A DNA stretch of 64,000 nucleotides, from positions 8,618,001 to 8,682,000 of the forward strand of contig OZ241829.1 in NCBI GenBank assembly GCA_965202585.1. The letters run 5' to 3'. This document shows, one piece after another, positions 3,001 through 12,000 of this stretch. The position numbers are program-made. Position 1 is the first letter of the stretch; each line of letters begins with the position of its first letter. Source of the stretch: Thalia democratica. Taxonomy: Eukaryota.

Positions 3001-6000
3001 TATTCAACTTGTTGTTTATTAGAACTGCTTTAATTTTTTTATCAATAACATTTATTTTTCTTATTATTAGATTTAAAACTATGAAGATATTTTTGTGCAA
3101 AGTAATTGTATTTGCTTTAATTTGTCACTTTTAAAGCATTTTTTATTTCACTTTATCATTTTTCACTCAAAAACTCCTTTTATTGAAATAAATTATTGAT
3201 AGCAGTACCTTAAATATTTCATAATTAATATGTAAAATTTCTTGAATGTTTAGTGAAAGTATTATATAACAGAGATTTTTGAGAAATTTGTTCCAGTTCT
3301 CTGAATTTCTTGTAGGTTTTTGAAAGTACATGTTAATGTATCTAATTTTAGTTGAATGTTAAGTTTAAAATTTAAAACTGTGTTAAGTAGTTTAACAAAA
3401 TTGAAAAGATACTGTAAAACTACTTCAATGGGCTTTTTAATAAAAAAATTGATGATGACGAAATATAATATATATAATATTTTATTTGTGTCAAATCAAA
3501 ATTTTACTACTTAATTTGTAAATATTTTTGCAGAAAATCATATTGAGAATTAATTATATTTAAAATTAAAATTCTTACTGAATCAATTGTTAATACTTTA
3601 TAAGTTAATAGTTACTGATAAGCTTTTAGAATTTAAACTATCTTTTTCATCTAAGTTCTTAACATTTTATCTTGTATGCAATATTTGAATTGTGCAGTTT
3701 TTTAATGGTTTTACTCTGTAACTTCTTTTTTTACCATGTAAGATGTTAATTTAGTTCAGTTGAATGAAAACAAACTGCAAAATTTAATAAAAAAATATTA
3801 GTATGAAAAACTCAGTCATGCATAAAAGTATTTTCAATTCTTAGCTGAAGCATCTTAACAACATTTCCAATAAAAAGTAAATTTGGCTAGCACTTTAAAA
3901 ATCAAGAGCAGGGCAAAGCTTTAAAATTTGTTCTATTTTGAAGTTTATAAGTAATCAAAGTAACAACAAAACTTTTAATTTTCAACGAGTAATTTTTAGT
4001 TTACAAACATTTAACTGACAGATAAATTCTTCTTAACAGTGTTCAAATTTTCTAAAACTTTATTACTTTTTTATTAAAAAAAAATAACTGCAAGTGTTTT
4101 ATTCATCAAAAATCTTTAGATTTATTAACTTTTAACAAAACATCTATTTTTATTTAAATATTTTTGTAGTTTAAAGAATTTTATAAGTTTTTACACGTTT
4201 TTTCTAAGAATATTTTTATTTTCTTTACCTGAAATTAAGTAAAATCAAAAAAATTTCATAATCTTTGTTTAACTTAATATATTACATAGCATAGTTTTTT
4301 TATTGAAAAACGCATGTAGCATCTTTCAAACTGTATGTTTTAGATATTTACTTATTTTCTTTCTTCCTTTGGTTCTTTCTAATTTTTAGTCCATTCGGTA
4401 CTGCTAAATAATAGATGGATAAGTTTAAATTCATGAAATAATAATAAGAAAGTTTTTATTAAAATGTAATATGTCTTTATAATTGTTTTAGCATTAAAAT
4501 TTAGTAAAGCTGTAATAATAATTTTAGTTTAAACCTTATTAGTAAATATACCTTTTTAGGACTTTGCTGTTACATAAATGACATCTTGTTAATTAAACTT
4601 TTAAGCAATGTATTATTTTGTAGCTTAAAAAACAATTGTGCTTTTTTTAGGTATTACTAATAAAAACAAACCAGCTTTCAAAACAAGCTAAGCATCAAAA
4701 TGCCTTATTTTATCCAAGAACTTTTCGACATTTTTTTTTCAATTAGCCTGTAAAAAAATTCTTTTCAAATGCTTAAATAAATAAATAAAATTAATGTACA
4801 AAAATCAAACCTTTTTTTCTTTGTAGTTTTCTACATTGTGTTAAACGTGTTTCTTTTCTATTATTCTTTTCTTTGTTGATTAATTGAAGATCCGTAATCA
4901 AACACACTCACAGTCACACAAACAAGTTAGTAGTTTTATTTTAATAAAGCTTAGTTTTAATTATGTATATAAATTATATAATATAACAAAATACCTGTAC
5001 ATTCGCACTTGCAGAAAAACCTTGCTGACCAGACTCTAGTAAAAATTTTGTTTCATTTTGATTGCTGCTACCTTAAATGTTTAAGTATTTGCACAAAAGA
5101 ACTAACAGAAACTATGAAAATTACTCATATGACTGGTTTTTTTTAAACTGTCTAACCTTCAAGACTTATTTCAAATAAGGAGCTGGATAGAGAGTTTGCA
5201 ATTGCATCCAAGCCGTCAAAACTGTCAACTGAGTAAACTCGTTCTTCAACATTTGCTGCTAATAACTGAAAAATTTTATAATTTAACTAAAACAGTTGCT
5301 TTATATATTGAAGTCAAAAATAAGTTGTTGTCAAAATAATTATCTAGCTTAATAATGTTTAAGTAGTGGTGTGTAGCCCGATGAATTAATAGTATTTTCA
5401 AAAGGTCCATTATCTATTTTTATGAACGTCATTTTAATTTTTTGAAGTCAGAATGCTTATTTTGTTTAATCTATGTATAAAAAGGGTTGTTTCAAGTTAT
5501 TAACCTTCAGTTCATTCTGCTTGATCTTCTTGCCCACTCCGACAGAGTACATGACGACTCCTGACTCCTCCAAAGACATCTGAGCTCTCTTCAGCCTCCC
5601 GTGTATGTTGTCTGATGAACTAAATAGAATTTATTAACTATTTATATTAAGTTTTTTTTAATATTTTAAAGTAAAATAAATAATTAACTCACGGCAAAAC
5701 GGATTTTCAAGTTGTAAACCTTATTTAAGTAAAATGTTTAATAGTAGTACTTCCTTATATTATATATTTAAAACTAACTCTCCATGAGTCAATATGATAT
5801 GAGTTTGATCCATTTTATGCTTTATAAGTTATGTCGCATATTCTATATACCAAACTTTTGTTATTTTAAGAAACACAATTACACTGTTTAACTGTATAGC
5901 AGATTTTCAAAATGTAAACCTTACTAAAATAGAATGTTTTATAGTAAAACGTTTTTATATTATATATTTAAAACTAACTCTCCATCAGTCAGTGTGATGA

Positions 6001-9000: not shown

Positions 9001-12000
9001 CAAAACTTAAAACAAATAAATCCATATTTAGACACACTACAAAGTTATAAAAAAAAGTTGTATATGATTTGAAATAAAAATTAAAAAAGTAATCAAGTAC
9101 TTATAGATAGAAAATAGTGTACAAACATACATCAAAAATTTAAAAATTGCAAAAAAATATTTTGTTGCAACTAAACTTGTCAGACATAAAAGAAAAACTC
9201 TATAACTTTTAGCATTAAATAACGATAGTTTGTAATTTTTATATAAATAGCGTACTTACCAAAAGCACGTTGTTTGCTAAAGTGTGAACGTTCTCAGCTT
9301 CCGGTAACCCGTCAGACCTGAGGCTGGATTCCATTCCTGTACATCTGACATTTTCCTCGCTTGCGTGTTGTGGTACTGGACATTGCAGAAGTGGTCTGGT
9401 TGAGTCATTACCTGAACAAGTAAAATGTTAAATAAAACTAGAAATGAACGAAGCAAGTTAAAATATAAGAGTGGTATTTGCCAAAATATCGCATTAAGAA
9501 ACTTAAACACAAAAGAAAAACAATTTTTTGTACTTTCTAAACTTATCATTATTCAAATTTAAGTTATTTAAAAGACGATGCGTTTTATTTAATGCCACAA
9601 AGTATCAGGTAAGCTACTTTTTTTTTAATAACTTACTTTTTGTTTCATTGAGTGATGTATATACTGACATTGTTGAAGCAATAGTGTAACTGAAAAATAA
9701 ATAGCATTATTTCAAAAGAACAAAAAAACACAAAAATACATTCATTTTGAAAAAAAAGTAAAACTCACGAATACAAATCATCCTTTTTAAAGGTGAATGA
9801 CTGACCAAAGTTGCCACGTGTTTCTCCATTGTACTGAAAAGGTTGTAGAAGAGATTTTGAATCCAACGCTATATTGTAACTTTTTGTTGATTTAAAGGTG
9901 CATAAAATCATTATGATTGTTAAAAACATTATTGTTTGCTGAAAAAAGAATTAGTTACAAGCTTACTTAATCTAATACTCTAAACACGTTAGAATTATTT
10001 AAGAAACGTATTTTTTTTTTAATTTGTGATAGATCTTAACATTAGCTGTAAAAAAATATATATGAGTTTAAAGCATTGTACGCAGTATATATACAATATG
10101 CTTCAATTTACTTCTAAGAACTAAATAAACAAAAAAATGTTCTTATAAAATTCGTGCCTTAGTAAAAGTTATAAACGTTTTTTATTAACAATTGATATTT
10201 TGTTCACGTTTTTTAAATATAACACCTTTAAACAGTAACAATATTGTTTGTTAAAGCTTTTATTCTTAAAAAATCAATAAACACTTTTACAAGAAATAAA
10301 AGCTTTAATTAGCAAAAAATTTTATTGCATTTACTAAGTAAAGCTAATTAATACGGTTTGATTTATCGACGTGCTTTTAATGTACATAAATATTTATTTC
10401 TCAAAATCACTGCCTAATATTTAATGTAATGTAGAATATTATCTATTGAGCTTTATAAATTTCTTATGGTTTTAAAAAAATTAACAAATAAATTTTTATT
10501 AAAGTATTTGTTGAATAAATTAAACTGATCAACCTTAAACATTAACCCTAATAAAGTATTTAAAAAATTTTTGTTTTTAAATTAGACTGGCATATTTATC
10601 TATTTAGTTTTACAAAATCTTTTAACCTCATGAGTTTGTAATAAACAAACTAATCCTTACCGAAACACATAAATAAATTAGTGGTAGTAGAAAATACTTT
10701 GAAGATCAAGTTTAAAAGTTCAACAAAAAAAAAAACTATGATTTGTAGGTATGGATAATTTATTTATGAACGTGCTTTTGTAAAACATATTATATGTTTT
10801 AATGTTATTTGTACACTTTTGCTACGGATAAATTTATTTACAATGCTTTAAACAGGCAATAACTAATTTAGACCATAAGTAATTGCTTTAAAACCATATG
10901 ATTTCTTAAATCAATATTATAAAACGACTGTTATGACTTGACTAGTAGCTTGGTGCTTGACAAAAAAGTAGATTTTTTGTCGGTCTTTTTAAAAATAACT
11001 AAGTATTACAATATTACAAAGTATATTACAATATACTTATTATACATATTAATGTTAGTTTAGTGCATTTTATAAACATTTTTATTACAAATAATCATGG
11101 CTTTAATAAGCTAGTAAATAAAAAAGCGTGTTAAACTAAATTGAAACCTTTCAAAGCGCACGTATAAAAAGTATTGTTTAGGTGATTACCTTTACTTTAA
11201 TGTTTAAGTTCCAAGTAAGCTTTTGTACTACGGTATTAACAAACATCCACAAAATTGTTTTAAATACTTTTTTAACAAAACATTTTGTTTTATATTAAGG
11301 TCTGCATGTGTTCTTTGAAAAATTAGTTTATATTTTTATTAAATAGTTTTTATGAGTACTTATTTGAACATATTTTTTTTTCAAACTAAACTTGTTATGG
11401 ATTAGTTGTTGTTGCATACATACTTATGAGTTTGCAAGTAATAAATTATTAAAACTTATGTAGTTTTTATATCTAGTTATTAATTTTAGTTTTATAAAAA
11501 AATATTTTTAACACTTTGAACATTCAAAGTAACAGAATGTTAATATTTAAAAAACTTTTATGATATAGTTCCTTATTACCAATTTTTATGCTTGCATTTA
11601 AACAAGATTGCATTTAAACCAATTTCTATTGCATTAAATACCTTTAACCAAATTAATACAGAAGTTTTCCTAGAAGTATCTTAATTTCTAGTATTGTTTG
11701 TGTAATTTCGCATTTTGATTGACTTAACTACCCTATTGACTTTTATAATTTCCTTCACAACAAATACTTTAAAGTTTAAGTTTTACGTAAAACTTGGTGT
11801 AGATGTTTTACTTTTATAACTTTAAATTAGTTCAAGTAAACTTTTGTTAAACTAGTAGACATGGAAAGACGCTTAGTTTATGTTTTTATTTAATTAATTA
11901 TCTATTTAATTATTACTAAGTAATGTTTATATTTATTTAATCGTTGAATATTCTAATGTGCTAGCTCATAGCTTTAGGTAAAATTAAATATTTTTAAACT

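What the first reader, a model, noticed from the sequence alone, without database searches (positions are those of the whole stretch)
4995..9929. Integrin alpha that appears to stop after the I-domain: possible soluble decoy or pseudogene
The gene has a signal peptide, blade 1 and an I-domain with all MIDAS elements (DGSGS, T in GLTPT, D in TDG), plus the first motif of blade 2 (seen). Full integrin alphas continue with about 5 more blades, thigh/calf domains, a TM helix and GFFKR (established). I found no GAP/FG motifs, TM exon or GFFKR in the 4.6 kb before the next gene starts at 408. Read-through of intron 10 stops after 6 codons. Weak candidate terminal exons (4830-4811 KTTKKKR, then ~4747-4705 LIEKKMSKSSWIK*) would give a short basic tail. 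The inference is a secreted ~400-aa I-domain ligand binder unable to pair with a beta chain, or a truncated duplicate.
Basis: partly seen in the sequence, partly recalled or inferred. Interest (0 to 1): 0.65.

Follow-up and report, generated by a model that had tools for sequence, protein, structure and literature searches.

The report
Short integrin-alpha I-domain gene, tunicate family
This tunicate gene encodes only the front end of an integrin alpha chain (signal peptide, first propeller part and an intact metal-binding I-domain), and similarly short gene models exist in three sea-squirt genera, so the truncation looks like a family trait and not a one-off defect.

Summary
On the minus strand, ten GT-AG exons (9929-4995) give 381 open codons. 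They encode a signal peptide, a Cys-rich pre-I segment, one VWA/I-domain with a complete MIDAS, the LEG motif and the start of the next blade. No other integrin-like sequence was found in the 64 kb window. The tests were tblastn with full-length integrins, a family HMM against all 4864 six-frame ORFs, motif scans and a GC-peak scan.

The new result is a set of annotated relatives of 415-466 aa with the same stop-after-the-I-domain architecture. They are in Styela clava (4, plus a partial one), Ciona intestinalis (1) and Clavelina lepadiformis (1). A profile of these ranks seven of the ten exons as hits 1-7 in the window, in collinear order.

The locus is therefore best read as an intact member of an uncharacterised tunicate family of short, probably secreted, integrin-alpha-derived I-domain proteins. 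Every 3' end I could model stops within 0-12 codons.

Still open: whether transcripts really end here, whether the family is old or arose repeatedly, and what it binds. The "decoy" function is inference. The spliced model was searched exon by exon only, and the joined step was left out.

The parts
9769..9929 (-). Exon 1: ATG (9929-9927), hydrophobic signal-like N-terminus, SYNIAL start, NFGQSF motif
   Evidence: Sequence and translation. The family HMM aligns it at the right place but only at rank 23, which is not significant. No Pfam or PDB hit.
9637..9689 (-). Exon 2 (53 nt)
   Evidence: Defined by GT-AG sites and reading-frame continuity only. No homology signal. It is the one exon missed by the GC-peak scan.
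9260..9411 (-). Exon 3: first Cys...Cys pair
   Evidence: Translation. The HMM aligns C...C to family columns 113-131, but at rank 455, which is not significant.
8061..8172 (-). Exon 4: ACSPSTVQNC...PGKCY, the Cys-rich segment before the I-domain
   Evidence: Family HMM columns 156-177, E 0.0076, rank 4 of 4864 ORFs. tblastn hits from P0335, P0355 and P0297.
6967..7129 (-). Exon 5: CP + beta1-alpha1 of the I-domain with DGSGS (7085-7071)
   Evidence: Pfam VWA 1e-6. PDB integrin alpha-X I-domain 2.1e-5. Family HMM E 5e-13, rank 1.
6566..6623 (-). Exon 6 (I-domain)
   Evidence: Family HMM rank 7, E 1.4, collinear.
5979..6121 (-). Exon 7: MIDAS Thr (6079-6077) and TDG Asp (5986-5984)
   Evidence: Family HMM E 1.4e-6, rank 2. 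Alignment shown.
5505..5619 (-). Exon 8 (I-domain, VGVG strand)
   Evidence: Family HMM rank 5, E 0.13.
5157..5265 (-). Exon 9: C-terminal helix of the I-domain ending in ISLE(G), the internal-ligand-type LEG motif (Glu 5160-5158)
   Evidence: Family HMM E 6.6e-6, rank 3. Its only PDB hits are the alpha-M and alpha-X I-domain C-termini, and they are weak (E 0.5 and 1.5). The motif definition comes from a PMC12422189 passage.
4995..5071 (-). Exon 10: post-I-domain segment ...ESGQQGFSASANVQ, ending in phase 0 at donor GTATTT
   Evidence: Family HMM columns 400-423, rank 6, E 0.31, collinear.
4974..4994 (-). Read-through of the exon 10 donor: VFCYII then TAA (4976-4974), the simplest 3' end (387 aa)
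   Evidence: This is inferred as the transcript end, not shown.
4935..4940 (-). AATAAA 54 nt after exon 10
   Evidence: The evidence is weak: the hexamer occurs 26 times in the 4577 nt of 418-4994 on this strand.
7689..8103 (.). 62-bp tandem array (6.9 copies) that repeats the last 43 nt of exon 4 and its donor inside intron 4

Best explanation
The locus is an intact gene of a tunicate family of short proteins derived from the 5' part of an I-domain integrin alpha gene. The encoded parts are a signal peptide, the stretch that corresponds to propeller blades 1-2, one I-domain with a complete MIDAS and the LEG motif, and the first strand-equivalent of blade 3. Translation then stops within a few codons.

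The protein lacks blades 3-7, the thigh and calf domains, the membrane helix and GFFKR. It therefore cannot be a conventional membrane alpha-beta receptor.

The most likely mode of action is inferred, not shown. It would be a secreted, metal-dependent ligand binder that acts through its I-domain. Its likely ligands are of the kind that ascidian I-domain integrins on blood cells are thought to bind, namely complement-type or matrix ligands. It could act as a soluble binder or competitor.

Shown: the gene structure, the intact ORF and MIDAS, the absence of further integrin exons in the window, and homology to short annotated relatives. Inferred: secretion, the transcript end and the ligand.
For: **Intact gene.** Ten open exons with 9 of 9 GT-AG introns, 381 codons and the MIDAS residues are present.

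**Short relatives.** A profile search (A1, 'longer') listed short relatives among its 120 rows: P0313 (415 aa), P0329 (466), P0335 (445) and P0355 (445) from Styela clava, P0375 (461) from Ciona intestinalis, P0366 (426) from Clavelina lepadiformis, and the partial P0323. The 4 of them scanned against Pfam carry VWA-type families only. All end 8-45 aa after the motif that matches E10.

**Match to the window.** An HMM of the 6 short proteins plus P0297 residues 1-480 was run against all 4864 six-frame ORFs of at least 8 aa. Ranks 1-7 are E5, E7, E9, E4, E8, E10 and E6, collinear over columns 156-423. The summed per-exon scores for E5-E9 are 260-317 against the short proteins. They are 226 against the N-terminal module of a full-length tunicate-type integrin (P0297 456-1000) and 196-235 against vertebrate I-domain integrins. 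E4 scores 39-65 against the short proteins and 18-33 against all others.

**Conserved MIDAS.** The MIDAS columns are invariant in the 7-row family alignment.

**Nothing further in the window.** tblastn with 16 queries at E<=1 gave no hit in 1-4994 and only 3 chance-level hits elsewhere (E 0.37-0.67). There are no Ca-loop, GAP or W.GG motifs. Only 2 GC peaks lie in 418-4994, and the one read (1559-1667) has stops in all three minus-strand frames. No minus-strand ORF of at least 30 aa lies within 2839-2899, although the 107-aa ORF 2801..3124 ends in it.

**Short 3' ends.** Read-through stops after 6 codons. All 5 AG acceptors upstream of the next gene's ATG give a stop within 0-12 codons.

**Structure of a relative.** A model of P0335 has a confident VWA core. 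Its 13 best PDB matches are alpha-M, X, E and L chains over 344-379 columns.

**Host.** The genome is tunicate by its T-box exon.
Against: - No transcript data exist for this locus. The E10 donor (CAG|GTATTT, phase 0) looks usable, which fits an exon meant to be spliced onward.
- The short relatives are gene models. P0366 ends in '...VR*', which is what a translated GT[AG]AG donor would give. This is my inference and suggests that at least some C-termini are prediction artefacts.
- P0297 shows one ORF in which a short module runs on into a complete integrin. Short modules can therefore be part of longer messages.
- E1-E3 are not statistically matched to the family or to integrins (ranks 23, 707 and 455; no Pfam or PDB hits).
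- Only one full-length tunicate-type integrin was available for comparison. It is therefore untested whether the short proteins form one old clade.
- The N-terminal 190 residues of P0335 fold with pLDDT below 50. Two and a bit blades of a seven-bladed propeller are not expected to be stable alone (established structural knowledge).
Confidence: 0.55

Rival explanations
1. A dead or dying partial duplicate. The 5' ten exons of an I-domain integrin gene were copied without the rest. The copy is still open by recency and makes no useful product.
For: - The product would carry an incomplete propeller.
- E1-E3 are very divergent, and the GAP-type motif is degenerate (YTIAST).
- Local duplications of exon ends with their donors lie in introns 4 and 7, which shows an unstable locus.
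- No convincing terminal exon or specific poly(A) signal was found.
Against: - 381 codons stay open in DNA of about 25% G+C, with 9 of 9 canonical introns.
- All MIDAS residues and the LEG motif are kept.
- The same truncated architecture is present in models from three ascidian genera, with invariant MIDAS columns.
Confidence: 0.2
2. The gene is not short. Exon 10 is spliced to integrin exons outside the window, either across the next gene as an alternative 5' cassette of a distant integrin gene, or the assembly is broken between 418 and 4994.
For: - Exon 10 ends in phase 0 at a GT donor.
- P0297 joins a short module to a full integrin in one ORF.
- Ewan et al. 2005 report that early Ciona alpha-chain models were fragments that needed manual extension, and that I-domain alpha genes lie in tandem (PMC1145181 passages).
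Against: - No integrin-like sequence occurs anywhere else in the 64 kb window.
- The window has no N.
- A different ORF on the same strand starts at 408, so the intron would have to span another gene.
- In P0297 the downstream integrin keeps its own signal peptide and FNV start. This looks like two tandem genes read as one, not a shared constant region.
- Homology-guided annotation in three other species also stopped at this point.
Confidence: 0.15
3. The protein is not integrin-derived. It is a generic secreted single-VWA matrix protein of collagen VI or matrilin type, with an unrelated Cys-rich leader.
For: - In the two large sequence searches, E5's highest total scores go to multi-VWA collagen VI-like proteins.
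- E1, E3, E4 and E10 have no Pfam FG-GAP hit, and E1, E4 and E10 have no PDB integrin hit (E3 was not sent to PDB).
Against: - Those totals are sums over many VWA copies. The best single-domain PDB hit of E5 is the alpha-X I-domain, and E9 hits only alpha-M and alpha-X.
- E4 and E10 flank the VWA exactly as in the family, whose member P0297 1-440 is homologous over columns 57-426 to the head of a complete integrin.
- The LEG motif is reported as integrin-specific (PMC12422189 passage).
- The P0335 model matches integrin alpha chains over 344-379 columns.
Confidence: 0.05

Closest known systems
Annotated short 'integrin alpha-X/M/D-like' proteins of ascidians (P0313, P0329, P0335, P0355 Styela clava; P0375 Ciona intestinalis; P0366 Clavelina lepadiformis)
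   Same: They share the same order of parts: signal peptide, [YF]N[LVI] start, Cys-rich pre-I segment, one I-domain with MIDAS, an [LV]LEG (LEG) motif in 5 of these 6 (P0366 has FPDG there), an E.G..G[FL]S segment, then an early stop. Only VWA is found by Pfam. E4-E10 align collinearly.
   Different: The window protein is divergent: 33-52% identity in E5, and E1-E3 are not significantly matched. It is shorter (381 codons plus a few). The tails after the last motif are unrelated between species. I found no paper describing these proteins.
Ascidian I-domain integrin alpha chains (Ci_alpha1-8, Hr_alpha1)
   Same: Both carry an I-domain inserted in an integrin alpha head, in a tunicate host. The ascidian clade is expressed mainly in blood cells and is proposed to act as complement receptors (PMC1145181 abstract and passages).
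   Different: Those are full-length chains of about 27 exons, with a propeller, legs, a membrane helix and beta partners. None of that is present here. I could not obtain their sequences, so no direct comparison was made.
Vertebrate leukocyte integrins alpha-M / alpha-X / alpha-L (I-domain and headpiece)
   Same: They give the best single-domain PDB sequence matches of E5 and E9. They are also the best structural matches of the relative P0335. The MIDAS and the Glu-Gly after the last helix are shared.
   Different: Identity is about 20-27%. Tunicate I-domains are paralogues, not orthologues, of the vertebrate ones (PMC4237329 abstract). There is no propeller closure, no legs and no membrane anchor.
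C-terminally truncated integrin beta1 paralogues of zebrafish
   Same: They set a precedent for expressed integrin paralogues that keep the N-terminal ligand-binding part and lack the transmembrane and cytoplasmic domains. They arose by duplication, including tandem duplication (PMC1538996 abstract).
   Different: They are beta chains, not alpha, in a vertebrate, with a different truncation point. Their function is also unknown.

Membership tests
Canonical I-domain integrin alpha subunit | Signal peptide and mature start of the F/Y-N-[LVI] type, followed by the FG-GAP blade 1 motif | tested here: inconclusive
   SYNIAL and NFGQSF can be read in E1; the motif itself is recalled. There is no Pfam FG-GAP hit at E<=1 and no PDB hit. 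The family HMM places E1 correctly but only at rank 23.
Canonical I-domain integrin alpha subunit | Inserted VWA/I-domain with a complete MIDAS (DxSxS, T, D) | tested here: met
   DGSGS, T of GLTPT and D of TDG are present. Pfam VWA on E5. Alpha-X, L and M I-domain hits.
Canonical I-domain integrin alpha subunit | Internal-ligand I/LEG(T) motif after the last I-domain helix | tested here: met
   ISLEGS spans the E9/E10 junction. The motif is described as absent outside integrins in a PMC12422189 passage.
Canonical I-domain integrin alpha subunit | Seven FG-GAP blades, with Ca2+-binding loops in the later blades | tested here: not met
   No D.[DN].[DN]G..[DE], GAP or W.GG motif occurs in any frame of the window. 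tblastn with 8 full or partial integrins and the family HMM found nothing beyond E10.
Canonical I-domain integrin alpha subunit | Thigh and calf Ig-like domains, transmembrane helix, GFFKR | tested here: not met
   No tblastn or HMM hit. The only GFFRK, at 36794-36780, lies upstream of the gene and has no membrane helix.
Short tunicate integrin-alpha-like I-domain proteins (P0313 group) | Collinear homology from the Cys-rich pre-I segment through the I-domain to the E.G..G[FL]S segment | tested here: met
   E4-E10 take ranks 1-7 of 4864 ORFs, over HMM columns 156-423. Per-exon scores are highest against this group.
Short tunicate integrin-alpha-like I-domain proteins (P0313 group) | The coding sequence ends soon after that segment, with no FG-GAP, Ig or transmembrane part | tested here: met
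   This holds at the genome level: nothing further lies in the window, and every modelled 3' end stops within 0-12 codons. The transcript end cannot be tested with these tools.
Short tunicate integrin-alpha-like I-domain proteins (P0313 group) | Homologous N-terminal 150 residues | tested here: inconclusive
   E1, E2 and E3 rank 23, 707 and 455. The positions of the Cys pairs and of the start motif agree by eye.
Collagen VI / matrilin-type VWA matrix proteins | Several VWA domains, or VWA with a collagen helix, EGF or coiled coil | tested here: not met
   Only one VWA is present, and no paralogous copy of any exon was found in the window apart from the intron repeats. No other domain hit was found.

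The most novel reading that the evidence does not exclude
Tunicates keep a conserved family of secreted integrin-alpha 'head fragments' that work without a beta chain or a membrane anchor. Each is a free I-domain with an intact MIDAS and the internal-ligand Glu. It would act in blood or tunic as a soluble binder, opsonin or competitor for the complement- or matrix-type ligands of the cell-surface I-domain integrins. Alternatively, it would present its LEG Glu in trans to beta I-like domains. This would be a soluble arm of the ancestral integrin/complement-receptor system.
Probability: 0.3. Interest if true: 0.7.

Novelty: new variant of a known kind. Interest (0 to 1): 0.5.

Why it matters
I-domain integrins arose at the base of tunicates plus vertebrates. 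How the inserted domain was acquired and reused is an active question (PMC12422189, PMC4237329).

A family that keeps only the head end with a working-looking MIDAS would show that the I-domain module was redeployed as a free protein early in chordates. It would offer a natural soluble I-domain for studying ligand choice, whether complement C3-type or collagen. It would also warn annotators that 'integrin alpha-X-like' entries of about 400-470 aa in tunicate genomes are not receptors.

If the models are instead truncated predictions, the finding is only an annotation caveat.

Tried and rejected
I did not pursue it and used local tblastn and HMM on ORFs instead.
- **Single-exon searches.** E5 in the 'longer' mode found only a clam VWA2-like protein (1 hit among 9 candidates). 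The exhaustive representative search with E5 (254 hits at E<=0.001, 150 listed) was dominated by multi-VWA proteins. It gave three unnamed single-exon fragments (P0097 at 62%, P0146 at 51%, P0133 at 46% identity), and the family was reached only after profiling these.
- **PDB searches.** E1, E4, E8 and E10 gave nothing at E<=10. E7 gave 5 unrelated chance rows.
- **Non-coding RNA.** tRNA and Rfam scans of the GC-rich spots found nothing.
- **GFFRK at 36794-36780** is a chance match.
- **Shared tails.** I tested whether the tails of the short proteins derive from the first exon of a downstream integrin, as in the P0297 linker. The alignment scores are no better than shuffles (0.37-0.76 of 500 shuffles reach them), so I dropped the idea.
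- **Exon sizes.** Those of Ci_alpha5-8 (PMC1145181 Table 1) do not match the window's, apart from exon 1 (161 nt), so they do not help.
- **Atlas look-ups.** The neighbouring ORF gave no usable hit. P0335 gave only VWA and integrin clusters.
- **AF2 on P0335** left the N-terminal 190 residues below pLDDT 50, so I make no claim about how a partial propeller folds.
- **Not available.** The genomic loci of the relatives therefore stayed unchecked.
- **Not used.** No complex prediction was sent, because I claim no binding partner.

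
Full report

There is therefore no whole-protein Pfam scan or structure for the window's own product. The structure reported below is of an annotated relative. The window is not human: it has 25-30% G+C and tunicate affinities. It contains no N.

**1. The observation**

The gene lies on the minus strand. Reading 10100-4600 and checking the boundaries gives ten exons:

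| Exon | Coordinates |
|---|---|
| E1 | 9929-9769 |
| E2 | 9689-9637 |
| E3 | 9411-9260 |
| E4 | 8172-8061 |
| E5 | 7129-6967 |
| E6 | 6623-6566 |
| E7 | 6121-5979 |
| E8 | 5619-5505 |
| E9 | 5265-5157 |
| E10 | 5071-4995 |

- All nine introns are GT...AG. The lengths sum to 1143 nt, or 381 codons, and the last exon ends in phase 0.
- The separate exon translations show a hydrophobic N-terminus followed by SYNIAL, two Cys pairs, CP and then DGSGS.
- They also show GLTPT, TDG, a C-terminal helix ending in ISLE-G, and then ...ESGQQGFSASANVQ.
- An ORF with ATG at 408 runs off the window on the same strand.

So the description is correct. The only slip is blade numbering. The I-domain sits between blades 2 and 3 (passage in 10.1101/2023.11.05.565221).

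**2. Is it integrin-like, exon by exon?**

- **Pfam.** Of 8 exons scanned, only E5 is recognised (VWA, 1e-6).
- **PDB, E5.** Against PDB sequences E5 matches 74 chains at E<=1. The top total goes to the many-VWA collagen VI alpha-3 chain, but the best single-domain match is the alpha-X I-domain (2.1e-5), followed by alpha-L and alpha-M.
- **PDB, E9.** E9 matches only the alpha-M and alpha-X I-domain C-termini, and weakly (E 0.5 and 1.5).
- **PDB, other exons.** E1, E4, E8 and E10 match nothing, and E7 gives only chance rows.

On these tests alone, 'integrin' rested on one exon and on motifs.

**3. Relatives**

E5 alone found a clam VWA protein. In the exhaustive search it found mostly multi-VWA proteins (254 at E<=0.001, 150 listed) and three unnamed single-exon fragments at 46-62% identity.

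A profile of E5 with those three fragments (A1), searched among longer proteins, gave 376 hits among 8000 scored candidates, of which 120 were listed. The list includes a set of short ascidian proteins:

| Protein | Length (aa) | Species |
|---|---|---|
| P0313 | 415 | Styela clava |
| P0329 | 466 | Styela clava |
| P0335 | 445 | Styela clava |
| P0355 | 445 | Styela clava |
| P0323 | 291 (partial) | Styela clava |
| P0375 | 461 | Ciona intestinalis |
| P0366 | 426 | Clavelina lepadiformis |

- Most are named 'integrin alpha-X/M/D-like'. P0366 is unnamed, and P0323 carries a collagen-like name.
- Their alignment shows the same order of parts as the window gene.
- They all stop 8-45 residues after the E.G..G[FL]S segment that corresponds to E10.
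- The four scanned against Pfam carry VWA-type families only.

P0297 (1741 aa, unnamed source) is such a short module followed in the same ORF by a complete I-domain integrin. That integrin has its own signal peptide and FNV start, three FG-GAP matches, Ig-like domains 1-3, a membrane helix and GFFKS. I read this as two tandem genes in one message or model.

**4. Does the window gene belong to this group?**

An HMM of the six short proteins plus P0297 residues 1-480 was run against all 4864 six-frame ORFs of at least 8 aa in the window.

- Ranks 1-7 are E5 (5e-13), E7 (1.4e-6), E9 (6.6e-6), E4 (0.0076), E8 (0.13), E10 (0.31) and E6 (1.4).
- These hits are collinear over model columns 156-423. 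The next hit is at E 8.7, elsewhere in the window.
- E1, E2 and E3 rank 23, 707 and 455. They are placed at the right columns but are not significant.

Per-exon local scores:

| Exons | Short proteins | Head of the P0297 full-length part | Vertebrate I-domain integrins | Two invertebrate VWA proteins |
|---|---|---|---|---|
| E5-E9 summed | 260-317 | 226 | 196-235 | 253-259 |
| E4 | 39-65 | 26 | 25-31 | 31-33 |

The two-VWA Styela protein P0303 scores 234 for E5-E9 and 18 for E4.

The short modules of different species resemble each other over their whole length. P0297 1-440, for example, gives 221-305 bits against them and 155 bits against its own downstream integrin head.

A model of P0335 built on the 7-row alignment A2 has mean pLDDT 56.6. 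It is confident only in the VWA core (residues 195-398). Its 13 best PDB matches are nevertheless alpha-M, X, E and L chains over 344-379 columns, ahead of isolated VWA domains at about 205 columns. Because the N-terminal part is low-confidence, I treat this as suggestive only.

**5. Is anything more of an integrin present?**

- **Motifs.** No Ca-loop, GAP or W.GG motif occurs in any frame of the 64 kb.
- **tblastn.** Sixteen queries, eight of them full or partial integrins including P0297, gave at E<=1 no hit in 1-4994 and three chance-level hits elsewhere (E 0.37-0.67).
- **Family HMM.** It found nothing outside the gene.
- **GC scan.** A 60-nt G+C scan flags 9 of the 10 exons. It flags only two spots in 418-4994, at 1559-1667 and 2839-2899. 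The first, which I read, has stops in all three minus-strand frames. At the second, no minus-strand ORF of at least 30 aa lies within the peak, although the 107-aa ORF 2801..3124 ends in it.
- **Repeats.** No dispersed repeat links this stretch to the rest of the window.

**6. The 3' end**

- Read-through gives 387 aa.
- Joining exon 10 in phase 0 to any of the five AG sites just upstream of the next ORF's ATG (445-411) gives a stop after 0-12 codons, so no in-frame fusion is possible.
- An AATAAA lies 54 nt after the exon, but the hexamer occurs 26 times in the 4577 nt downstream, so it says little.

Every end I could model therefore gives about 381-393 aa. Only splicing to exons outside the window would change that.

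**7. What it most likely is and does**

- **Shown:** an intact, canonical-intron gene for an integrin-alpha-derived protein that ends after the I-domain. It is homologous to short gene models in three ascidian genera. The MIDAS columns are invariant in the family alignment, and an LEG motif of the kind reported as integrin-specific is present (PMC12422189 passage).
- **Inferred:** it is secreted (signal-like N-terminus, no anchor) and binds ligand through the MIDAS without a beta partner. Ascidian I-domain integrins are expressed mainly in blood cells and are proposed to act as complement receptors (PMC1145181 abstract and passages). An ascidian I-domain is also cited as binding collagen (PMC12422189 passage citing Tulla 2007, which I did not read).
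- A soluble binder or competitor for such ligands is therefore the most likely role. I put 0.55 on the whole statement: about 0.8 on family membership and genomic truncation, and less on function.

**8. Rivals**

- **Non-functional partial duplicate (0.2).** It fits the divergent E1-E3 and the unstable introns.
- **Distant splicing or assembly break (0.15).** It fits the usable phase-0 donor, the P0297 precedent, and the history of fragmentary Ciona alpha models (PMC1145181 passage).
- **Generic VWA protein (0.05).**

Points against my reading apply to all of this. The relatives are models. P0366 ends in '...VR*', as a translated donor would. I had only one full-length tunicate-type integrin for comparison, so an old single origin of the short forms is untested.

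**9. Known or new?**

- Three full-text searches and passages of PMC1145181, PMC4237329, PMC12422189 and its preprint turned up no description of short I-domain-only alpha forms in tunicates. In PMC1145181 the words truncated, partial, incomplete, pseudogene and soluble do not occur.
- Supplements were closed and may bear on this.
- The nearest precedent is the set of C-terminally truncated beta1 paralogues of zebrafish (PMC1538996 abstract).
- I rate the finding a new variant of a known kind: members are already in public annotation under integrin names, but the architecture is uncharacterised.

**10. What stayed unchecked**

- The genomic context of the relatives.
- Cluster membership of the fragments (switched off).
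- Transcript evidence.
- Any analysis of the joined protein.

Noticed in passing
window 7689-8103: A 62-bp tandem array (6.9 copies, 89% matches) inside intron 4 repeats the last 43 nt of exon 4 together with its GTAAGA donor. Several decoy donors therefore follow the real one.
   Followed up: partly
window 5902-6009 and 5702-5809: A 108-bp duplication (82% identity) copies the 3' end of exon 7 and its GTTAGT donor 200 bp further into intron 7.
   Followed up: no
window 13387-19607 (+): A neighbouring gene has exons that match the collagen triple helix, a sushi repeat and the fibrinogen C-terminal domain. This is a ficolin- or tenascin-like immune or matrix architecture next to the I-domain gene.
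   Followed up: partly
window 44910-52730 (-): T-box gene exons lie here (Pfam T-box at 52320-52730 and 49738-50079). The best named relatives are Tbx2/3-type proteins of Oikopleura, Ciona, Styela and Clavelina at 76-80% identity over the matched part, which places the window in a tunicate.
   Followed up: partly
window 8382-8501 and 21845-21971: A GC-rich stretch in intron 3 resembles a second site in the window (73% over 129 bp) and is probably a dispersed repeat. It has no tRNA or Rfam match.
   Followed up: no
window 1-417 (-): The next ORF on the same strand (ATG at 408, 136 codons to the window edge) has no Pfam family and no usable Atlas hit. That it is a separate gene rests on the ORF alone.
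   Followed up: partly
protein P0297 (unnamed source), residues 1-1741: One ORF holds a short I-domain module, a 16-residue linker and then a complete I-domain integrin with its own signal peptide. This suggests short genes can sit directly upstream of full-length ones and be read together.
   Followed up: partly
protein P0303 (Styela clava, 435 aa): This protein has two VWA domains that look like ascidian I-domains but no integrin flanks. It hints that the I-domain module has been reused in other secreted proteins.
   Followed up: no
window 12508-12964: A 233-bp unit is repeated twice in tandem (93% identity) upstream of the gene.
   Followed up: no
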